A stretch of DNA of 64,000 nucleotides from Eledone cirrhosa (lineage: Eukaryota): NCBI GenBank assembly GCA_964016885.1, contig OZ024741.1, forward strand, positions 294,376,001-294,440,000, given 5' to 3'. The notes under the pieces were generated by a model. It was given only the letters and a program-made list of their open reading frames with translations, was not told the origin of the DNA and searched no databases. Position 1 is the stretch's first letter; the number at the start of each line of letters is the position of its first letter. This document shows positions 1 through 57,948 of the stretch, piece after piece. A program made the position numbers and the translations under genes.

Positions 1-190
1 GGTAGATTGGCAGTATTGGTAGAGGGTCTAACGCCATGCTTTGCAGCATAGAGTTACGGGCCTTTACGATCTGAGTTCAAATCCCGCCGTGGTTAACTTT
101 GCCTTTCATCCTTACGGGGTAGATAAAATAAAGTACCAGTAATACACTGGGATAATTGCTGGCATTGTGCCAAAAGTAGAAACAATTATT
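1..190 (+). mobile_element. tRNA-derived SINE, family A (5' end cut by the window edge)
   Basis: A-box-like TGGCAGTATTGGTAGA, B-box GAGTTCAAATCCC, central TTTGCCTTTCATCCTTACGGGGT(C/A)GATAAAATAAAGTACCAG and (ATT)n tail. More than 15 near-identical copies in the window. Confidence 0.9.
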
Positions 191-4718: not shown

Positions 4719-4910
4719 TGGCGGTGGATTGGCAGTATCAGTAGAGGGTCGGACGCCATGCTTTGACGCATAGAGTTACGGCCCTTGCCATTCTGAGTTC
4801 AAATCCCGCCGAGGTTAACTTTGCCTTTCATCCTTACGGGGTCGATAAAATAAAGTACCAGCAATGCACTGGGTAATTGCTGGCCTTGTGCCAAAAGTAG
4901 AAACAATTAT
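4719..4910 (+). mobile_element. tRNA-derived SINE, family A
   Basis: Full-length copy. Confidence 0.9.
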
Positions 4911-14348: not shown

Positions 14349-17020
14349 CATCATCATCATCATCACCGTTTTACGTCCGTTCTTCCACGCTAGCATGGGT
14401 TAGACGGGTTGTCCTGTTGTGGGCAGTGTCTGGTCGGCTGACCATGCCTTGCTCATACAGGAACTGATCTGGCTTGATTTCTACAGCTGGATGCCCTTCC
14501 TAACACCAACCTCATTTACAGTGAGTGCTGGGTGCTTTTTTGTGGCGCCTACACGTCCACTTTACAGTGTAGGCTGGGTGCTTTTTTGCCGTGGCACCTC
14601 CACGACCACCTTGCGGTGGAGGGAGTGGGGGCATATTGTTTATATGCTTCAGCATGTACCCATGGGAGGTCGGGTACCCTGTATTACTGCGTGACGCCAG
14701 AAGTCACGGTCGTGTGTCATTGACTTTGAGAGGTGTAGTTGGGTAAGGTCAGCTTTTATCACCTCATCCCAAGTCATCTTGGGTCTCCCCACTCCGCAGT
14801 TTCCATCAACTTCTAGTGCTCTGCACCTTTTTATGCAGCTGTCATCCTTCATACGGATCACATGTCCATACCAGCGTAACCGCCTCTCCTGCACGCAGCA
14901 TTTGATTCCTCTTATGCTCAGTCTCTCTCTCAATTCCTTTATGCTTTGTCGTTCACGTATATTACTGTTACACATCCATCGGAGCATGCAGGCTTCGTTT
15001 CTCTCTAATCTACGTAAGTCTTCCACCTTCAGCGCCCAGGTCTCACTACCATGCAACATCGCTGTTTGGATACACGCATCATACAGTCTGCCTTTCATTC
15101 TGAGGGAGAAGCCTTTTGCAGCTAGCAGTGGTAGTAGTTCCCTAAACTTCTTCCATCCCGTTCTTACCCTAGTTATTGTACTTTCTGAGCACCCACCTCT
15201 GTTGCTAATTCGGTCACCTAGGTAGCAGAAGCTGTCTACTGTTTCTACAGGGCCCTCCCAGAGATTGGTGGTACTTGTTTCCTGTGGCTGTTTGCTTGCT
15301 GTTTCAGCACAGCTGCTGCATGTGAATCCTACATTCTTAATTAAGCTTCCTGAGATCCCGCTACATCTCTTGTGTACCCATTGTTTGCATTTGGGGCAGA
15401 GAATGGAGTTCCTACCTACACCTTTCCTACATACTGAGCAAGGCCATTTCCCTGAGGGGATCTGGGTTCTGTTTTCTCGTCTACTTACAAGGACCTTAGT
15501 CTTTGTCAGGTTGACTTTGAGGCCCTTTCTCTCTAGTCCCTGCTTCCAGGTTTGGAATTTATTCTCTAGTTCTACCATAGATTCAGCTATGAGTGCGAGG
15601 TCATCAGCATACAGGAGTTCCCATGGGCACCCGGTCTTAAACTCCTCCGTTATTGCCTGCAGGACTATGATGAACAGGAGAGGGCTAAGAACAGAGCCAT
15701 GGTGGACCCCAACCTGTACGCTAAATTCCTCGCTATACTCATTGCTAATCTTAACTTTGCTGACTGCTCCCCTATACATGGCTTGTACCGCTTTCACAAG
15801 CCATTCATCTACTCCTAGTTTTCTAAGAGCCCACCAGATTACTGCACGTGGAACTCTGTCAAAGGCTTTCTCAAGGTCGACAAATGCCAAGTAGAGTGGC
15901 TTACTTTTAGCTAGGTACTTTTCCTGTAATTGCCTCACAAGGAAGAGGGCATCAGTGGTGCTTTTCCCTGGTACAAACCCAAATTGCATCTCGTCTATAT
16001 TTACCCGGTCCCTAATCAGCTGTGCTATAACTCTTTCTGTTACTTTCATGACCTGGTCCATCAACTTTATACCTCTATAGTTTCCTCTATCTAGTGCATC
16101 GCCTTTACCTTTGTAGCAGTTGACAATGATGCTACTGCACCAATCTTTTGGTATGGCCCCTTCTAATATTACCTGGTTAACGATACGTGTGGTTATAGTG
16201 TGACCTACAGACCCAGATGCCTTCAGCATCTCGGCAGCTATACCCGATGGACCGGTTGCCTTCCCTATCTTCATATCTCTGATTGCCTTACTTACTACGC
16301 TGCCGCTGACTTGTACTGCTGGTCCCTCTATAGGGTCTACGTGGGGTAGGGTCTCTTCTTCCCATGCATTCTCCTCATTTAGTAATCTATCATAATGACT
16401 CTTCCATGCATCTTTCTTCTCAGCACTTGTGAGGGCAAGCTCACCTTTATCATTCCGGATACAATTCTCTCCAATGACATCACAACTATCTCTGACACAC
16501 TGCCTCGCAATCTTGAATATCTCCTGTTTCTGGTCCTCACGTTGTAAAACATGCTTGAATTTTCTATCCTCTGCTTCCCTCCTAGCTAAGTATACTTGTC
16601 GCCTAGCTTCCCTCTTGGTCTCTATGTAATGTACCCTGCTCCCCCCATTCTTCCATTCTTTCCATGCCTGTCTCTTGGCCTTGACTGCTTCATCTACCTT
16701 ATTGTTCCACCACCAAGTCACTTTCCTCCTGCTTGAGGTCTTACTCCAGCCACAAACCTCATCCGTCGCCTCTAGTAAGTTATTTTTTAGGAACTCCCAG
16801 TTCTCTTCTACGTTAAATGTCTCTATCTGTTCTTCTTTACTGTCGTAGGCGTTGAGTAAAATATCTTTAAGTCTGTTACTGGTTGAGGGGACTTTCAGCT
16901 TCCAGATCTTTCTTCTCCAGGTTGGCCTCTGTTTCCGGGTTCGTCTAGTTCTGACCGTGAGGTCGCTGACAACTAAGCTATGTTGGGATGTACATTCCTC
17001 ACTAGGGAAGGCTTTTGTGT
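14349..17020 (-). mobile_element. Young 5'-truncated RTE-clade LINE inserted in (TA)n
   Basis: Uninterrupted ORF with RT motifs ([38 protein letters not shown]), 3' UTR and (GAT)n tail; TA repeats on both sides. Confidence 0.95.
14649..17020 (-). CDS. RTE ORF (end of endonuclease region, RT, internal PHD finger), ~790 aa. The ORF-track N-terminus MYIYIY is microsatellite read-through.
   Basis: ORF track 14649..17072. C-x2-C-x10-C-x2-C-x4-H-x2-C-x14-C-x2-C at ~15305-15452. Confidence 0.9.
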
Positions 17021-17946
17021 TTATACATATATATATATATACATCTATATATACATATATATATATATACATATATATATATACATCTATATATACATAT
17101 ATACATATATATACATATACACGATTACATTATTATTAGTAATTTCTGTGCTTCACCAAATTCAGAACTCGATGTTTCACATTTTTATCCATGGAAAAAA
17201 GGGAAAAAGAAAGGGAAATCCATTTAATTTTGTCTTTTTTGTCTGTATCCATGGAGATATAGTTAACATTAAATTGTTGAATGTATTAGTACAGAGTGGT
17301 AAAAACTCTTTGGAGAGCTGGACTGCAGAAGGTCTTCAGAGAAGAAACCCCACTCAAGCAAGTCTTTCAACCCTTAACAGAGTATTGTCATGATAGCAAC
17401 AATACATGAATATTCAGTTCATTTATTTCATTATTCCATTCTAGGATCAATTCAAATAGGTACACTTTACTCAACAATATTATATAAATAAATTAGTTTA
17501 GTTGAAAAGAAGGTAATAGCCCTGAAATATCATGTTGATATATACTGGCTAAAACCTTACTTTGTTTTATTTTATTTGTCATTCTTTGCCCTTCATACAT
17601 TTCTACTGCATTGTAGCAGCTTTCTGAAACTTATCAGTCATTGATCAAATATTATGTAAGTTCTATAGTTGCTCACATAACATTACATAAATATATTCTG
17701 AAGCACATTAAAGTCCTGCTTATTGTACTATTATTTTTCTATCTTATACTATTATTTCTGGTTTGGGACCATATATCAATGAAACAAAAACTTTGTTTGG
17801 ATGCATTATCATTGTATTATTTCCTGTTTTAAGATTTGCTCTAGTTTTGAAAATTCATCAGTATATATATATATATATATATATACTCTTTTACTCTTTT
17901 ACCTGTTTCAGCCATCCGGCTGAGGCCATGCTGGGGCACCGATATA

Positions 17947-21901: not shown

Positions 21902-24900
21902 TGTTTAACGTCCATATTCCACGCTTGCATGGGTTTGGACGGGAGTTTTCCCACTTGAGGCAAGAGTGGTTGTCTTGCTCGCATAGGACTGTCTGGCGGG
22001 TTTTCTATGGCTGGATGCCCTTCATAACACCAACCACATTTACAGTGTGGAACTGGGAGGTTTTTACCGTGTTACCTACATGGCCACATTACAGCGTGGA
22101 CTGTGTGTTTTTTTTGTCGTGACACCTACACGACCTCATTTGTTTCGGGCTGGATGTTGTGGTACCAACATAACTTTACATCGAAAGGGGTGGTGTGGAT
22201 GGGGTGGGGGTAGTAGGACGGGGTGTATTTTGTTAGAGGTGCCTACTGACTGTAGTAGGTTTCACTTTGTACTTAGGTAAGGCGGGTCTTCTCTATTATT
22301 GTGTAGCGCCAAAGATCTCGGTCTAGTGACATTGTCTTGGAGAGGTGTAAGTGTGTGAGGTCGGAATTTATCAAGTCGTCCCAGGCTTTTCTGAGTCTGC
22401 CTACTCCGTGGCTACCGTCTATCTTTATTGCCCTGCACTTTTTATACAGCTGTCGTCTTTCATGCGCATCACGTGACCATACTAACGTAGTCTTCTCTCG
22501 AGTAAACAACATCTGATCCCTCTTATTTCTAATTTTTCCCTTAGTTCGCTTGTGCTTTGCCGTTCACGTATATTACTATTACACATCCAGCGGAGCATGC
22601 AAGCTTCGTTCCTCTCCAGTCTGCGTATATCGTCTGCACACAATGCCCAGGTGTCACTGCCATGTAACATTGCTGTTCGTATGCAGGCATCATACAGCCT
22701 GCCTTTCATTTTTAGGGAGAACCCTTTAGCGGCTAATAGTGGTATAAGCTCTCTGAACTTTTTCCATCCAGTTCTGACTCTAGCTACTGTACTTTCAGAG
22801 CACCCTCCCCCACTGCTGATTTTGTCACCCAGGTAACGGAAGCTGTCCACTATTTCTATAGAACCATCTGTGCAATGGAATGAGCTAGTATTCTGCGGGC
22901 AATTGCTGCTACTTATTGCACCAGAGTACTGGCCACATATAAAATCTATGTTCTTAGTTAGCTTACCTGTGATCCCACTACATCTTTTATGTACCCATAC
23001 TTTGCATTTGGGACATAAAATGGAGTTTCTACCTACTCCTTTCCTACACACTAAGCATGGCCATTTCCCGGATGGGACCGGTGCCCTATTTTCCTTCCTA
23101 CAAACTAGAACTTTAGTCTTTGACAGGTTAATTTTAAGGCCTTTTGATTCTAGGCCATGCTTCCATGTTTGGAATTTCTTCTCTAGTTCGGCCATTGATT
23201 CAGCTATGAGCGTTAGATCATCTGCGTATAGGAGTTCCCATGGGCAGCTGGTCTTGAACTCCACTGTTATAGCCTGAAGGGCAATAATAAATAGTAGGGG
23301 GCTAAGAACGGAGCCCTGATGAACACCAACTTTTACGCTAAACTCTTCACTATATTCGTTGTTAATCCTAACCTTGCTGACTGTTTCTTTATACATGGCT
23401 TGTATAGCTCTCACAAGCCATTCATCAACACCTAGTTTTCTAAGAGCCCACCAGATAATGGAAGGGGGGACTCTGTCGAAGGCTTTCTCCAAGTCGACAA
23501 AAGCTAAGTATAGGGGTTTACTTTTAGCTAGGTACTTCTCCTGTAGTTGTCGTACAATGAAAGAGCGTCTGTGGTACTTTTACCTGACACAAACACGAAC
23601 TGCATTTCATCTAGATCAATTCTCTCTCTGATTAGTTGCACTATTAGTTTTTCTGTGACCTTCATGACCTGGTCGATTAATTTAATGCCTCTATAGTTAC
23701 TCCTATCTAGGGCATCTCCTTTACCCTTGTAACAGTTAATGATGATGCTGCTACGCCAGTCCTTCGGAACAACCCCATTCTGTATGACTTGGTTTACTAT
23801 CCAGGTGACCATGGTGTGTCCCACCGTTCCAGAAGCTTTCAGCATTTCAGCAACTATTTCCGAAGGCCCAGCCGCCTTGCCCGTCTTCATATCTTTGATT
23901 GCCTTACTTATTATACTACCTTCAACTAACACTGCTGGTCCCTCTATTGGGTCGATGTGGGGGAGACTGTCTTTCTCCCATTTATTCTCCTCATTTAGTA
24001 GCCTTTCATAGTGACACTTCCAAGCTACCTTCTTATCAGCGTCAGTGATGGCAAGTACACCATCACCATTAAGGACACACTTCTCCCCGCCAATATCACG
24101 GTTTTCCTTGACACATTGCCTAGCAATCCTGAACACCTCACGTTTTTGGTCCTCGCGTTGTAGAACATGCTTGAACCTTCTTTCCTCTGCTTCCCTTCTT
24201 GCAAAGTACACTTGTCTCCTAGCTTCCCTCCTAGCCACTTGATAGTCTTCTCTACTTCCCCCATCCCGCCATACTTTCCAAGCCTGCTTTTTGGCCTTAA
24301 TTGACTCTTCCAGCTTACTGTTCCACCACCATGTTACTCTCCTCCTGCCTATAGGCCTGCTCAAGCCACAGACTTCGTCTGCCGCCATCAGCAGGTTTGC
24401 TTTCAGGAATTCCCACTGTTCCTCTATATTGTACGACTCTAAATGCTCTTCCTTACTGTCGAAAGCATCAAGTAATATGCTTTTAAATTTATTTCTGGCT
24501 GTGGGGTCCTTTAGCTTCCATATTTTTCTCCTGAGGATAGTCCTCTTCTGCTGTCGAGTACGTCTCGTCCTGACTATGAGGTCGCTAATTATCAGTCTAT
24601 GTTGGGAGGTGCATTCTTCATGGGGGAGGGATTTAGTGTTTACAACAGACACTCTGTCACGTCTTCTGGTAAGGATATAATCTACCTGGCTGGTATGTTC
24701 CCCTGATCTGTAGGTGATCAAGTGATTGTCTCATTTTTTGAAGTTAGTGTTACAGATAGTTAGGTTATTTGCGTCACAGAATTCCAGGATTCTGGAGCCT
24801 TCCTCATTTCTAGTACCAAACCCATAGCCTTCGTGGATTCCATCATAGCCGTCACAATGTTGTCCAACGTGACCATTTAGGTCACCAGCAATAATTATAT

Positions 24901-35235: not shown

Positions 35236-35360
35236 CTCTTCTTACTATATGAGACATAAAACTAATAATATATTTCTACCTTGTACTGTGTTGTTTGCTT
35301 TATTTCTGTTAGCCTTTTGCAACATCACTATCATCCTCATTTTGCATATATATATATATA

Positions 35361-35574
35361 TAGTGGTAGAACACTGGAAGGTAATATCCGTAGTGGTAGA
35401 ACACTCAGTCCATGGGACGAGTTAGGTAGAAGTGGTAACACAACAGTTAGTTCACCATACTGAGAACAATTGTTTCACCTTAGCGGATCCTCAGCTCCAT
35501 TACGAGCTGAGGATCCACTAAGGTGAAACAATTGTTCTCGGTATGGTGAACTAACTGTTGCGTAACCACTTCTA
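35361..35574. mobile_element. Non-coding PLE pseudo-LTR hairpin: two inverted hammerheads (71-bp arms) plus 66-bp tail
   Basis: Arms 35427-35497 and 35504-35574 are nearly identical to the PLE 3' end at 57414-57484. Each arm reads GAG-CTGAGGA-TCC..GGT-GAAACAATTGTT-CTC. Confidence 0.88.
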
Positions 35575-35994
35575 TATATATATATATATATATATACATA
35601 CACACACATATATATATATATATATCGTTTTGTGTTCTTTTGTTTTTGTTTGTATTTTTATGTTTTTAATGTATTCTGAGTTGAATCAGTTTATTTTATG
35701 TGTTCACTTAGACACTCTAAGAGATCTGAATTCTTTATATCCTTATTAATTATTTACCAAGCATTTTTGTGGAAAAATACCTTGTGTTTAGATGAATTTG
35801 GATGTTCTGTGTCAAACATATGTATGTGTCTACTATCTTCATTTGTATGTGTATGCATACAAATTCTCTTTTGCTCATTCCATTTCTTGCTTTATTATTT
35901 TAAACCATTTATTTTGAATGAGTTATCCTCTAACTCTCTCTCTCTCTCTTTTACTCAATCTTTCTTCATATATATATATATATAAATATATATA

Positions 35995-36899
35995 TAAATC
36001 TAGCTAAGACAAAAGTGTTGATGAGTAGAAAAGAGGACAAAACCCTGATTCCGTCAGGGAAATGGCCATGTTCGATATGCAGAAAAGGAACTGGCATAAA
36101 TTCTATAAAATGCACACAATGTAGGTCCTGGGTACACAAGAGATGTAGCGGGATAGCAGGCAAACTAACAGGTAGGGAGAAATATGTATGCAGTAGATGT
36201 ACAGGGAAATTAGACAGTAGAAGTCGCACTGATAGACACATTTTTCAAATGCGAGAGGGCGCTATAGAAGTGGTGGATAGCTTCCGGTACCTAGGAGATC
36301 AGATTAGCATGGGAGGAGGGTGTTCCGAGGCCATAGTATCTAGAATAAGGACGGGTTGGAAGAAGTTTAGGGAGCTGCTTCCTCTGTTGACGAAGAAGGG
36401 TTTCTCCCTGCGTACGAAAGGCCGGTTGTATGATGCCTGTGTGAGGAGCGCGATGCTGCATGGTAGTGAGACATGGGCAGCTACCGCAGAAGATATGCGA
36501 CGGCTGGAGAGAAATGAGGCAAGCATGCTCCGTTGGATGTGCAGTGTAAATGTGCGTGAACGACCCAGCATAAATGTGTTGAGAGAGAAACTGTGTCTGA
36601 GAGGGATAGAATGTAGTGTACGGGAGAGGAGACTGAGGTGGTATGGACATGTGATGCGCATGGAGGATGACCGATGGGTGAAGAAGTGCCAGGAAATGCC
36701 AGTTGAAGGAAGACGTAGTAGAGGTAGACCACGAAAAACATGGGTGGAGGTGGTGAGAACAGACCTCAGATCATTGAAGCTCACGGTGGAGATGACGAGG
36801 GACCGTGACGAGTGGAGAGATGCTGTGCTGAATAAGACCCGTCCCACCCTTGCAAGCAGGGAAAAGCGGACGTAAAATGATGATGATGATGATGATGAT
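35995..36899 (+). mobile_element. 5'-truncated RTE LINE with PHD finger and intact C-terminal ORF (36015-36875)
   Basis: GKWPCSICRKG...CTQCRSWVHKRC...[22 protein letters not shown]; ORF runs into the (GAT)n tail; TA flanks. Confidence 0.93.
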
Positions 36900-54869: not shown

Positions 54870-55103
54870 AGTAGAACACTGGTGAGTTATATTCGTAGTA
54901 GTAGAGCACTCAGTCCATGGGACGAGATTTGTAGAAATAGTTCCACAACAGTTAGCTCACCATACCGAGAACAAATGTTGCACCTTATTCGGATCCTCAG
55001 CTCGGTTTTTCCTTTTCCATACAACTTCATTTAGACAGAGCTAAGGATCCAAATAAGATGAAACATTTATTCTTGGTATGGTGAACTAACTGTTGTGGAA
55101 CTA

Positions 55104-55108
<5 letters not shown>
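54870..55108. mobile_element. Older PLE pseudo-LTR hairpin (two inverted, partly decayed hammerheads) plus tail
   Basis: Same tail (AGTAGAACACTGG...CAGTCCATGGGACGAG) and architecture as 35361-35574. Confidence 0.82.
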
Positions 55109-55136
<28 letters not shown>

Positions 55137-55140
<4 letters not shown>

Positions 55141-57229
55141 ATTTATACGAACTGAATTACTCCCTGTAGAACATTCAAACTCCCTCCAACCATGTTTACC
55201 AAAAGCTCCCCCTACAAAAAGCGGAAGATGTCGTCAGATGCTTAAGATGGCGAGACCTAGCTTTCGACGGCAAAATTACAGGCACAAACAACACCTTCAA
55301 CCTGAAATCGAGAGCCTACCCTCCTAAGGTAACCGAACTTGCTCCTTTCGAGACGGACCTTCTTGACTTAGTCGTTAACATTTCCTTTCGCAAACACACT
55401 AACACCTTTCAAACGAAACTCAGAAACGATATTAAGAAATGTAGGTCTTCTAATAACACCTTCGTCCTTTCCGACAAAACTAATAATATTTACGAAGTCG
55501 ACAACACCACTTTCCGCCACCTGGCCCATAACGCTATTACTTCTAAATATAAGAAAGCTAACCCTATGGCCTACCACGACATTAACACAGAAGCCAAGGA
55601 ACTCGCCACCGACCTTAAGGTAGATAAGAAGCTACAATCTCTAGCTAAGCGGGAGGAATTCCTCACCCTGAAAGATCACAGGGTAGACTTTACTTCTAAC
55701 CCCACATGTAGACTAATAAACCCAGCACGCACAGATATGGGACTAGTCAGTAAGGCCATACTTAGAAACATAGTTAAGACCATTAGGACCAAGTCCAACC
55801 TGCCCCAGTGGGAGAACAGCGACTCCGTAATTAAGTGGTTTAACTCCTTAAAATCCAAAAAAGCGAAGTTCACACAGTTTGACATTGTCGATTTTTACCC
55901 GTCGATCTCAGAGACCCTGTTAAACAAAGCGCTGGACTTCACTACCACTTATACCATCGTCGATGGTTTAGACAGGGAAATCATCGTTCACTGCCGGAAA
56001 ACCCTCCTCTTCAACGACGGAGTAGCCTGGGCAAAGAAGTCTACATCTTCAGACCTGTTCGACGTCTCCATGGGATCGTTTGACAGTGCTGACGTATGCG
56101 ACTTGGTTGGCCTTTTTATCTTAGACATATTACGTGTTAGATTTCCGGACTTCCACACGGGAATATACCGTGACGATGGACTGACTTTATCGAGCCATAA
56201 AAGTGGTCACGACCTCGACCGGTTTAAAAAAGACTTAGCTTCTACCTTCAATGAGTTAGGCCTTAGGATAACAGTAGCCACCAACCTCTCTAGCATAGAT
56301 TTCTCAGACATTAATTTAGACCTTCGCACACACACCCACAGACCCTTCCATAAGCTAAACGAGAAACTTAATTACATTCACAAGGACTCATGCCACCCTC
56401 CCACTGTTTTTAGAAACTTCGTTAAGAATATCAGTACTAGAATCTCAAACCTTTCCTCTAATAAGGCTATCTTTGACAAGGCGGCACCCTACTATAACAC
56501 AGCGTTGGCTAACAGCGGCTTCTCACAACCTATCACCTACTCTCCCACTAGCAACACCACCATTAAGAAAAGTAAGCGCATCAATAGACAAACTATCTGG
56601 TTCTCTCCTCCCTTCTCACTCAACGTTAAAACCAATGTAGGAAAAAAATGTCTAGCCCTCTTATATAGACACTTCCCCATAGGTCATAAATACCGCTCCA
56701 TCTTTAACCGACACAAAGTTAAACTAGGATATTCCTGCGCTAAGAACATGAAGGCCCACATCACCAGCAGCCCTAGGAGCACCACCCACCAGGGTGCTCT
56801 TGCCGTAAGCCTGAAGCTTGCCCCCTTCAACAACAATGCAACACACCAGCTGTGGTCACTTCCAACCGACCAAACGAACCACAGGAGGTCAAACCCTATG
56901 TGGGCATGGCGGAGGGCCGATTCAAGGAGCGTTTCCTGAACCACCAGTCTACCTTCAGATACCCGGACAGACGTTCATCCACGAAACTCACGAGCCACGT
57001 ATGGTCCCTCAAGGACTCAAGTATAGGGTACTCCATTCAATGGAAAGCCATCACTAAGTCCAAGCCATACGCAAGGGGAAATCCGACGTCGGGCTTATGT
57101 ATTGACGAACGAATAACTATCCTAAAGAGATTACGCAATAGTGATTGCCTAAACACGAGAAGTGAATTTTTCACACGTTGTCCACACGTCACCAAACATC
57201 TATTGCATAACTACAAGGCTCCGGACTGA
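55137..57229 (+). pseudogene. Disabled PLE RT-GIY-YIG ORF
   Basis: ATG at 55137 is in frame with ORF 55566..; TAG at 55167-55169 (YSL*NI); frameshifts or deletion at ~56760-56860 in the linker and GIY motif. Confidence 0.85.
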
Positions 57230-57400
57230 TTCTTTGTAATTTTATTTTTAATTTTTTTATTTTATTTTCAACCAAAAAACTTTCCGGACTTTCGCAGTTA
57301 TCTCCCTTACACCTCCCGCACGCAGTCTAGTATTGCCTGTGTGAAGTGACCGAGTTTCTGCGCATGCGCGTTCGTACGGTTGTCCTTCCTGTTCCTATAA

Positions 57401-57456
57401 CCATACACATCCCGAGCTGAAGATCCGCGAAGGTGAAACAATTGTTCTCGGTATGG
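57401..57456 (+). ncRNA. Type I hammerhead ribozyme with palindromic stem III
   Basis: Stem I CCGAG/CTCGG (extended by CCATA/TATGG); CTGAAGA (57417-57423); stem II T-CC-GCGAA-GG-T; GAAA (57435-57438); stem III ACAATTGT; predicted cleavage GUU after 57446. Confidence 0.8.
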
Positions 57457-57479
57457 TGAACTAACTGTTGTGTAACCAC

Positions 57480-57520
<41 letters not shown>

Positions 57521-57759: not shown

Positions 57760-57948
57760 CCGTTGTGGATTGGCAGTATCGGTAGAGGGTTGGACGCCAT
57801 GCTTTCCAGCATAGTTACGTCCCTTTACGATCTGAGTTCAAATCCCGCCGAGGTTGACTTTGCCTTTCATCCTTACGGGGTCGATAAAATAAAGTACCAG
57901 TAATGTACTGGGTAATTGCTGGCCTTGTGCCTAAAGTAGAAACAGTTA
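57760..57948 (+). mobile_element. tRNA-derived SINE, family A
   Basis: Full-length copy. Confidence 0.9.

What the first reader, a model, noticed from the sequence alone, without database searches (positions are those of the whole stretch)
35361..35574. Protein-free double-hammerhead hairpin derived from the end of a Penelope-like element in the same window
Seen: a 214-bp insert in (TA)n made of a 66-bp tail plus two 71-bp inverted arms. Each arm carries a hammerhead core (GAG-CUGAGGA-UCC..GGU-GAAACAAUUGUU-CUC) almost identical to the PLE 3' end at 57414-57484. A more diverged copy with the same tail is at 54870-55108. Established: PLE pseudo-LTRs carry minimal type I hammerheads with palindromic stem III that act as dimers, and PLEs make inverted, tailed insertions. 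Inference: this is either the minimal product of PLE integration or a non-autonomous, retrozyme-like family mobilised by the PLE enzyme. A transcript from either strand would contain one sense hammerhead and its antisense, so it could self-cleave or fold into 71-bp dsRNA (an ADAR/Dicer substrate).
Basis: partly seen in the sequence, partly recalled or inferred. Interest (0 to 1): 0.75.

Follow-up and report, generated by a model that had tools for sequence, protein, structure and literature searches.

The report
Two-armed Penelope retrotransposon insertion stub
This hairpin is a very short, head-to-head pair of end pieces of a common Penelope-type jumping gene, one of many such stubs in this genome, likely made afresh at each insertion when the element's RNA is copied into both sides of a DNA break, so it is not a self-spreading ribozyme element.

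Summary
In detail: a 66-bp tail and two 71-bp inverted arms sit in (TA)n, each arm 67/71 identical to the 3' end of a Hydra-clade Penelope-like element (PLE). The retrozyme reading fails. The tail is the PLE's own next 66 bases. In 177 tail-anchored insertions the tailed arm runs from 0 to 2,348 bp; 99 arm pairs repeat only four length combinations. This copy's junction occurs four times in 3 Gb, once with the tail on the other arm, so junctions recur independently. The inverted, tailed architecture and opposite-strand hammerhead pairs are published. Less ordinary: arm ends are 15-20 times denser 60-89 nt from the start site in two subfamilies, with a one-base mode at 76 nt often followed by a non-template G. 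This fits two internally primed cDNAs running off a predicted capped RNA start; support is moderate, and this copy overshoots by 1-3 nt. The hammerhead is Hydra-type and conserved, but the hairpin transcript is predicted to bury it. The 54870-55108 copy is a separate, older insertion. The scan found the same class, and the cap idea, on other DNA of this genome.

The parts
35346..35360 (.). (TA)n target, left side
35361..35426 (-). 66-bp PLE tail: the natural continuation of the element between start site A and start site B; ends at site B against (TA)n
   Evidence: 10 of 30 body-anchored copies end at site B, 18 at site A; L191 shows tail then 147-bp 5' UTR then ATG
35427..35497 (-). tailed arm, 71 bp, inverted PLE 3' end; Hydra-type hammerhead at 35497-35462, predicted cut after 35465
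35496..35503 (+). junction: 2-bp microhomology (35496-35497) plus 6 bp of natural upstream PLE sequence belonging to the right arm
   Evidence: same junction at 4 places genome-wide
35504..35574 (+). untailed arm; hammerhead at 35504-35539, predicted cut after 35536; ends at start site A against (TA)n
35575..35598 (.). (TA)n target, right side
54870..55108 (.). separate, older (gamma subfamily) tailed inverted stub; left arm about 72 bp, right arm about 104 bp; both hammerhead cores carry mutations
55137..57484 (+). 5'-truncated dead copy of the Hydra-clade PLE (beta subfamily): starts at the ATG, premature stop at codon 11, frameshift between RT and GIY-YIG parts, ends at site A in (TA)n
57414..57449 (+). 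hammerhead of the beta PLE 3' end

Best explanation
The 214 bp are a very short inverted, tailed insertion of a Hydra-clade Penelope-like retrotransposon, likely built anew at this site from two cDNAs primed on the two sides of a cut (TA)n repeat. Shown: the tail and both arms are PLE sequence; insertions end at two fixed sites 66 nt apart; arm lengths vary from copy to copy; both arms of one insertion carry the same source haplotype. Inferred: the PLE endonuclease cuts (TA)n, one reverse transcriptase starts internally at site A and one at site B (giving the one-sided tail), both copy through the uncut hammerhead, and the two cDNA ends are joined head to head by microhomology, sometimes with small templated inserts. 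Inferred with less support: the stubs are this short because the enzymes often start at the 5' copy of sites A and B, about 76 and 142 nt from a capped RNA start in the pseudo-LTR, and run off its end. The hammerheads are passengers here; they matter, if at all, in the source elements.
For: Tail continuity: (9 of 190 tail hits continue into 5' UTR and ORF). Two ends: 18 site A, 10 site B, 2 other of 30. Continuum: tailed arm 0-2,348 bp in 177 insertions; 102 have an inverted partner; 32 have two arms of 69-130 bp. 17 of 29 site-A-anchored copies have a tailed inverted partner (my count). Junctions: of 99 pairs only 4 length pairs occur twice. This junction: 4 copies, tail on one arm in 3 and on the other in 1; another junction: 8 copies, 4 versus 3 (1 unclear), on different tail haplotypes. 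The longer arm is the tailed one in 36 pairs and the untailed one in 39, against simple fold-back of one tailed cDNA. Shared minor alleles between arms: 19 of 176 (4.2 expected) and 27 of 134 (4.0 expected). End rate 19.8 per kb at 60-89 nt against 1.0-1.3 at 120-599 nt, in both subfamilies; arm lengths correlate (rho 0.65); local palindrome density does not explain the peak. Mode at 76 nt: 14 of 115 alpha arm ends, next base G in 9 of 14 where the template has C, against 28 of 105 elsewhere (p 0.011). Genome-wide 322 non-template bases at this point against 84 at a control point 3 nt away. In vitro, a Poseidon PLE cuts and extends both strands, starts at two internal sites that define the tail, and does not need hammerhead cleavage (PMC11167929).
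Against: This copy's right arm passes the proposed cap site by 1-3 nt, and many arms end at 77-110 nt. The genome-wide G:A ratio at the mode (42:23, hand count of the first 100 of 322) is not significantly above the control (22:19; p 0.31). 14 of 25 ends with G (p 0.016 against one third) includes 5 loci from the earlier sample. In beta the mode is broad (76-78), and 2 of its 4 ends at 76 are mis-parsed palindromic junctions. Of 9 full-length-type copies, 7 have a 5' pseudo-LTR longer than 76 nt, so other templates extend upstream. Correlated, similar arms also follow from later central deletion or gene conversion in palindromes. Target duplications cannot be read in (TA)n. The parse was automated and missed a few short or damaged arms (e.g. 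L093, L101).
Confidence: 0.72

Rival explanations
1. Same twin-primed integration, but the template is a short protein-free RNA (hammerhead plus tail, about 142 nt) transcribed from solo stubs and mobilised in trans, i.e. a SINE-like non-autonomous PLE derivative whose genomic products are the hairpins.
For: Solo units that begin exactly at the 76-nt point, carry the tail and are flanked by (TA)n exist (L346, L370, L371). Short arms are the commonest class. Non-autonomous PLE derivatives are known (PMC8557442 passages; bioRxiv 10.64898/2026.07.22.740005).
Against: Short arms carry the same subfamily haplotypes as long ORF-bearing arms; some short arms jump straight into ORF sequence (17 of 177 with extra PLE segments); no stub-specific lineage was seen. 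Solo units are equally explained as single run-off cDNAs.
Confidence: 0.12
2. The stub is what is left of a longer inverted PLE insertion after central deletion of an unstable palindrome, or of a single cDNA that folded back on itself.
For: Arm lengths match within 5 nt in 33 of 99 pairs (9.8 expected). Several junctions sit on internal palindromes such as stem III. Long tailed arms often lack a partner.
Against: It does not predict a one-base mode with non-template G, nor solo arms joined to (TA)n at the same base. Palindrome density is no higher at 60-89 nt. Here the loop belongs to the untailed arm, which a fold-back of a tailed cDNA cannot give.
Confidence: 0.11
3. The whole hairpin is a self-propagating, retrozyme-like family copied as a unit by the PLE enzyme.
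For: A few junctions recur at unrelated loci (4 and 8 copies). The best 40 genomic matches look alike, but they were selected for that.
Against: Near-unique junctions; recurring junctions occur with the tail on either arm and with different tail haplotypes; no head-to-tail tandem of the unit in the 190 tail-anchored loci beyond one locus with three spaced stubs; one sense hammerhead per strand, predicted to be buried.
Confidence: 0.05

Closest known systems
Hydra clade of C-terminal EN+ Penelope-like elements (Craig et al. 2021, PMC8557442), e.g. Hydra-1_Ajap, Hydra-1_Obim, Penelope-13_HM
   Same: Under 3 kb, single RT + C-terminal GIY-YIG ORF, DKT, RW motif, CxCX5C linker, (TA)n targets, 3' hammerhead with U at both ends of stem II and U at the cut site; inverted 5'-truncated copy plus one-sided tail. 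Penelope-13_HM is listed with an inverted copy and hammerheads on both strands.
   Different: A different family from Hydra-1_Obim (other hammerhead and protein sequence). Tail is 66 bp, not 30-40. The paper passages read give no arm-length distribution or run-off site.
Opposite-strand dual minimal hammerheads of Schistosoma Cercyon PLEs (Cervera and De la Pena 2014, PMC4209133)
   Same: Pairs of hammerheads about 100-700 bp apart on opposite strands were noted there, and most motifs were assigned to truncated PLEs; palindromic stem III, predicted dimer action.
   Different: Their motif has G10.1-C11.1 and a long stem II; here stem II is U.U plus two C-G pairs, and the two cores are under 20 bp apart.
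Poseidon PLE of Anolis in vitro (Frangieh et al. 2024, PMC11167929)
   Same: AT-rich target, both strands cut and extended, two internal RT starts that define the tail, uncut RNA used as template.
   Different: Other clade; starts lie inside the ORF there and in the pseudo-LTR/5' UTR here; joining of the two cDNAs and run-off at a cap were not shown in the parts read.
Metazoan non-LTR retrozymes (Cervera and De la Pena 2020, PMC7229834; bioRxiv 10.64898/2026.07.22.740005)
   Same: Protein-free, type I hammerhead, PLE-related; axolotl HHR_Amex2 has the same U.U base of stem II and a 2-bp stem III with tetraloop, and self-cleaves weakly.
   Different: Retrozymes are head-to-tail tandem units with same-strand hammerheads giving circular RNA; this is head-to-head, one hammerhead per strand, with no fixed unit.

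Membership tests
Hydra-clade PLE (source element) | Single ORF with RT and C-terminal GIY-YIG, element under 3 kb | tested here: met
   unit about 2.56 kb (2,348 + 66 + 147); a homologue scores GIY-YIG at E 4e-4; the window copy itself has no Pfam hit and is broken
Hydra-clade PLE (source element) | DKT motif, RWK-type motif, CxCX5C linker, CxxC and CxH around the EN end | tested here: met
   DKT, RWR (RWK/RWR in homologues), CSCRKPEAC, CPH; first Cys of CxxC absent in this dead copy; features as listed in PMC8557442 section 11
Hydra-clade PLE (source element) | Insertion into (TA)n | tested here: met
   (1,470 exact site-A/TATA junctions)
Hydra-clade PLE (source element) | Placement inside the Hydra clade on an RT tree | not tested
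   no tree was built; assignment rests on motifs and 38-54% identity to 120 unnamed homologues
Canonical PLE insertion structure | Inverted 5'-truncated copy with one-sided tail; variable truncation | tested here: met
Type I hammerhead ribozyme | Core CUGANGA, GAAA, NUH, stems I and III | tested here: met
   subfamily differences within the motif fall only at N7, loop 2 and loop 3 (215 arms)
Type I hammerhead ribozyme | G10.1-C11.1 pair closing stem II | tested here: not met
   U.U instead; common in listed Hydra motifs and present in the weakly active HHR_Amex2; no Rfam match
Type I hammerhead ribozyme | Self-cleavage as monomer or dimer | not testable with these tools
   needs assay; a two-strand fold of the PLE motif gains about 9 kcal/mol over two monomers, prediction only
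Non-LTR retrozyme | Head-to-tail tandem units with same-strand hammerheads | tested here: not met
Non-LTR retrozyme | Fixed unit propagated as a whole | tested here: not met
Non-LTR retrozyme | Circular RNA in vivo | not testable with these tools
   no RNA data could be laid

The most novel reading that the evidence does not exclude
These stubs are a genome-wide record of how PLEs build their inverted, tailed ends: a dimeric enzyme primes both sides of a (TA)n break at two internal sites of one RNA, both cDNAs run off a capped start just 5' of the hammerhead (a strong-stop-like product, often with a cap-templated G), and the ends are joined by microhomology. This gives a base-exact, testable prediction for the PLE transcription start and for the unexplained inverted-plus-tail structure.
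Probability: 0.5. Interest if true: 0.58.

Novelty: new member of a known kind. Interest (0 to 1): 0.3.

Why it matters
As an object it is ordinary repeat debris of a known class. Its value is as data: how PLEs form tandem and inverted ends is named as an open problem in PMC8557442, and the length and junction statistics of these stubs point to twin internal priming and a run-off site that can be tested by 5' end mapping and in vitro. It also warns that hammerhead counts and hairpin or MITE calls in such genomes are inflated by PLE stubs: roughly 18% (32 of 177) of tail-anchored insertions look like double-hammerhead hairpins.

Tried and rejected
Rfam scans of the window and of the PLE end gave no hammerhead hit; the microRNA matches are below threshold and reflect any long hairpin. 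Pfam gave nothing for the window PLE proteins. Sequencing-run search: no RNA holder listed, so no reads were laid; this says nothing on expression. The idea that 54870-55108 is the 5' pseudo-LTR of the PLE at 55137 was rejected: other subfamily, (TA)n between them, no tail-UTR link. A pile-up at the predicted ribozyme cut (38 nt) was looked for: 2 of 193 arm ends at 38 and 8 at 38-41, no clear peak. Palindrome density as the cause of the 60-89 peak was rejected. An apparent gap in alpha arm lengths (155-471 nt) was not seen in beta, so it was dropped. A second copy of the bulged tail hairpin after site B (lead from e1-8837782) was not evident by eye in 9 5' UTRs; no model search was run. The top-hit set was not used for counts because it is selected for likeness. 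Dropped before counts: 4 duplicated loci and 9 internal pseudo-LTRs of 190. Literature searches found no paper on PLE arm-length peaks or cap run-off; the library lacks most subscription papers, and the preprint's supplements were closed.

Full report
Observation. The insert is as described: tail 35361-35426, inverted arm 35427-35497, 6-bp spacer, arm 35504-35574, (TA)n on both sides. The arms differ at 4 of 71 positions, and each is 67/71 identical to 57414-57484. The RNA fold is a long hairpin of -135.3 kcal/mol, beyond all 200 shuffles. Each strand carries one sense hammerhead core. Rfam does not detect it.

Source element. 55137-57484 is a 5'-truncated, dead PLE: it starts at the ATG, has a stop at codon 11 and a frameshift before the GIY-YIG part. 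Its protein has DKT, an RW motif, a CxCX5C linker and a terminal CxH, the features given for the Hydra clade in PMC8557442 section 11. No tree was built. It is not Hydra-1_Obim, whose listed hammerhead and protein differ. Locus L191 shows the natural order: hammerhead, site A, 66-bp tail, site B, 147-bp 5' UTR, ATG. So the tail is PLE sequence. Of 30 copies found by ORF and 3' UTR sequence, 18 end at site A, 10 at site B and 2 elsewhere.

Family size. An exact 33-mer of the alpha tail end has 1,387 matches (742 forward, 645 reverse; control 0); the forward excess probably comes from one 30-bp tandem array of the tail's inner repeat on contig C4. The beta version has 810, and the site-A/TATA junction 1,470. 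The finding belongs to alpha, the window PLE to beta, and 54870-55108 to an older gamma subfamily whose best other copy is 88% identical; it is a separate insertion that shares the TA tract.

Test of the self-propagating reading. I took the first 100 alpha and first 90 beta tail matches on C1, chosen by the tail alone, and dropped 4 duplicates and 9 internal pseudo-LTRs. In the 177 left, the tailed arm runs from 0 to 2,348 bp; 102 have an inverted untailed partner; 32 have two arms of 69-130 bp like this finding. Among 99 simple pairs only 4 length combinations occur twice. The exact junction of this copy occurs 4 times in the genome, with the tail on one arm in 3 and on the other in 1. A second recurring junction occurs 8 times, 4 versus 3 with 1 unclear, on alpha, beta and gamma-like tails. 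One parent hairpin cannot give both tail sides, so these junctions arise independently. The automated parse missed a few short or damaged arms.

Mechanism. PMC11167929 (parts 1-2 of 4 read) shows in vitro that a PLE cuts and extends both strands of AT-rich DNA, starts at two internal sites that define the tail, and uses uncut RNA. The data here fit that. Both arms of one insertion share minor alleles (19 of 176 against 4.2 expected; 27 of 134 against 4.0), their lengths correlate (rho 0.65; 33 of 99 within 5 nt against 9.8), and either arm can be the longer (36 versus 39). Junctions show short microhomology or locally templated inserts; that this is polymerase theta-like joining is recalled, not tested. 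In this copy the loop belongs to the untailed arm, with a 2-bp microhomology, which a fold-back of one tailed cDNA cannot produce. Twin priming and end joining are inferred; later deletion or conversion could also give correlated, similar arms.

Why so short. Arm ends are far denser 60-89 nt from site A (19.8 per kb; 23.0 alpha, 16.6 beta) than at 120-599 nt (1.0-1.3), and short palindromes are no denser there. I had considered an RNA 5' end; the cap test came from scan note e1-10353012. In alpha, 14 of 115 arm ends fall at exactly 76 nt, and the next base is G in 9 of 14 where the template has C, against 28 of 105 elsewhere (p 0.011). Genome-wide, 322 copies have a non-template base there against 84 at a control point. 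Against: the G:A ratio (42:23 in the first 100, hand count) is not significantly above the control (22:19; p 0.31); 14 of 25 ends with G includes 5 loci seen before; beta has a broad mode; 7 of 9 internal pseudo-LTRs are longer than 76 nt; and this copy's right arm passes the point by 1-3 nt. Cap run-off is therefore likely for a part of the stubs, not shown.

Ribozyme. Across 215 arms of three subfamilies, subfamily differences inside the motif fall only at N7, loop 2 and loop 3, as expected if source elements keep a hammerhead. Stem II opens with U.U rather than G-C; many Hydra motifs in the PMC8557442 supplement do so too, and the axolotl HHR_Amex2 with that feature cleaves weakly as monomer and better as dimer (PMC7229834 section 15). 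Forcing the hammerhead fold in the full hairpin costs about 67 kcal/mol, against about 4 in the PLE 3' end. The hairpin transcript, if made, is predicted to be dsRNA and not a self-cleaving RNA. Activity and expression were not tested.

Prior art. Inverted truncated copies with a one-sided tail are the standard PLE structure (PMC8557442 passages), Penelope-13_HM is listed with hammerheads on both strands, and PMC4209133 (parts 1-2 of 4) notes dual hammerheads 100-700 bp apart on opposite strands. Retrozymes are head-to-tail tandems (PMC7229834 passages; bioRxiv 10.64898/2026.07.22.740005 part 1 of 5 and passages), which this is not. Four searches found no paper on the arm-length peak or cap run-off. 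The scan has reported this class several times on other DNA of this genome; those notes are unchecked and are not counted as support.

Verdict. Real, ordinary in kind: a stub of a new Hydra-type PLE family. The retrozyme reading is rejected. Moderate interest remains in the stub statistics as a test of PLE integration.

Noticed in passing
G000:C4:80498891-80505900: About 7 kb tandem array with a 30-bp period made from the inner direct repeat of the PLE tail, next to a whole tail: a minisatellite born from a PLE end.
   Followed up: no
window 35361-35375 and 35391-35405: The tail holds a 15-bp direct repeat at 30-bp spacing; a bulged hairpin begins about 5 nt after site A, with loop-only variation between alpha and beta.
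   Followed up: partly
L100, L102, L117, L140, L146: Short tailed arms (28-97 bp) that jump in the same orientation to far upstream PLE sequence, as from template switching or deletion.
   Followed up: partly
L173: Three tailed stubs within 1.5 kb, two with the same arm lengths; probably local duplication plus re-insertion into TA tracts.
   Followed up: no
window 14649-17129 (-), 22482-24730 (-), 35934-36875 (+): LINE-like reverse transcriptase ORFs followed by a C-terminal PHD finger, several copies in the window; clade not determined.
   Followed up: no
window 79-151, 4801-4873, 57840-57912 and about 14 more (family D15): Abundant SINE-like dispersed repeat of about 190 bp in both orientations.
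   Followed up: no
L380: A stub whose tailed arm has an alpha-type hammerhead but gamma-like bases near site A and in the tail: an intermediate subfamily or a recombinant.
   Followed up: no
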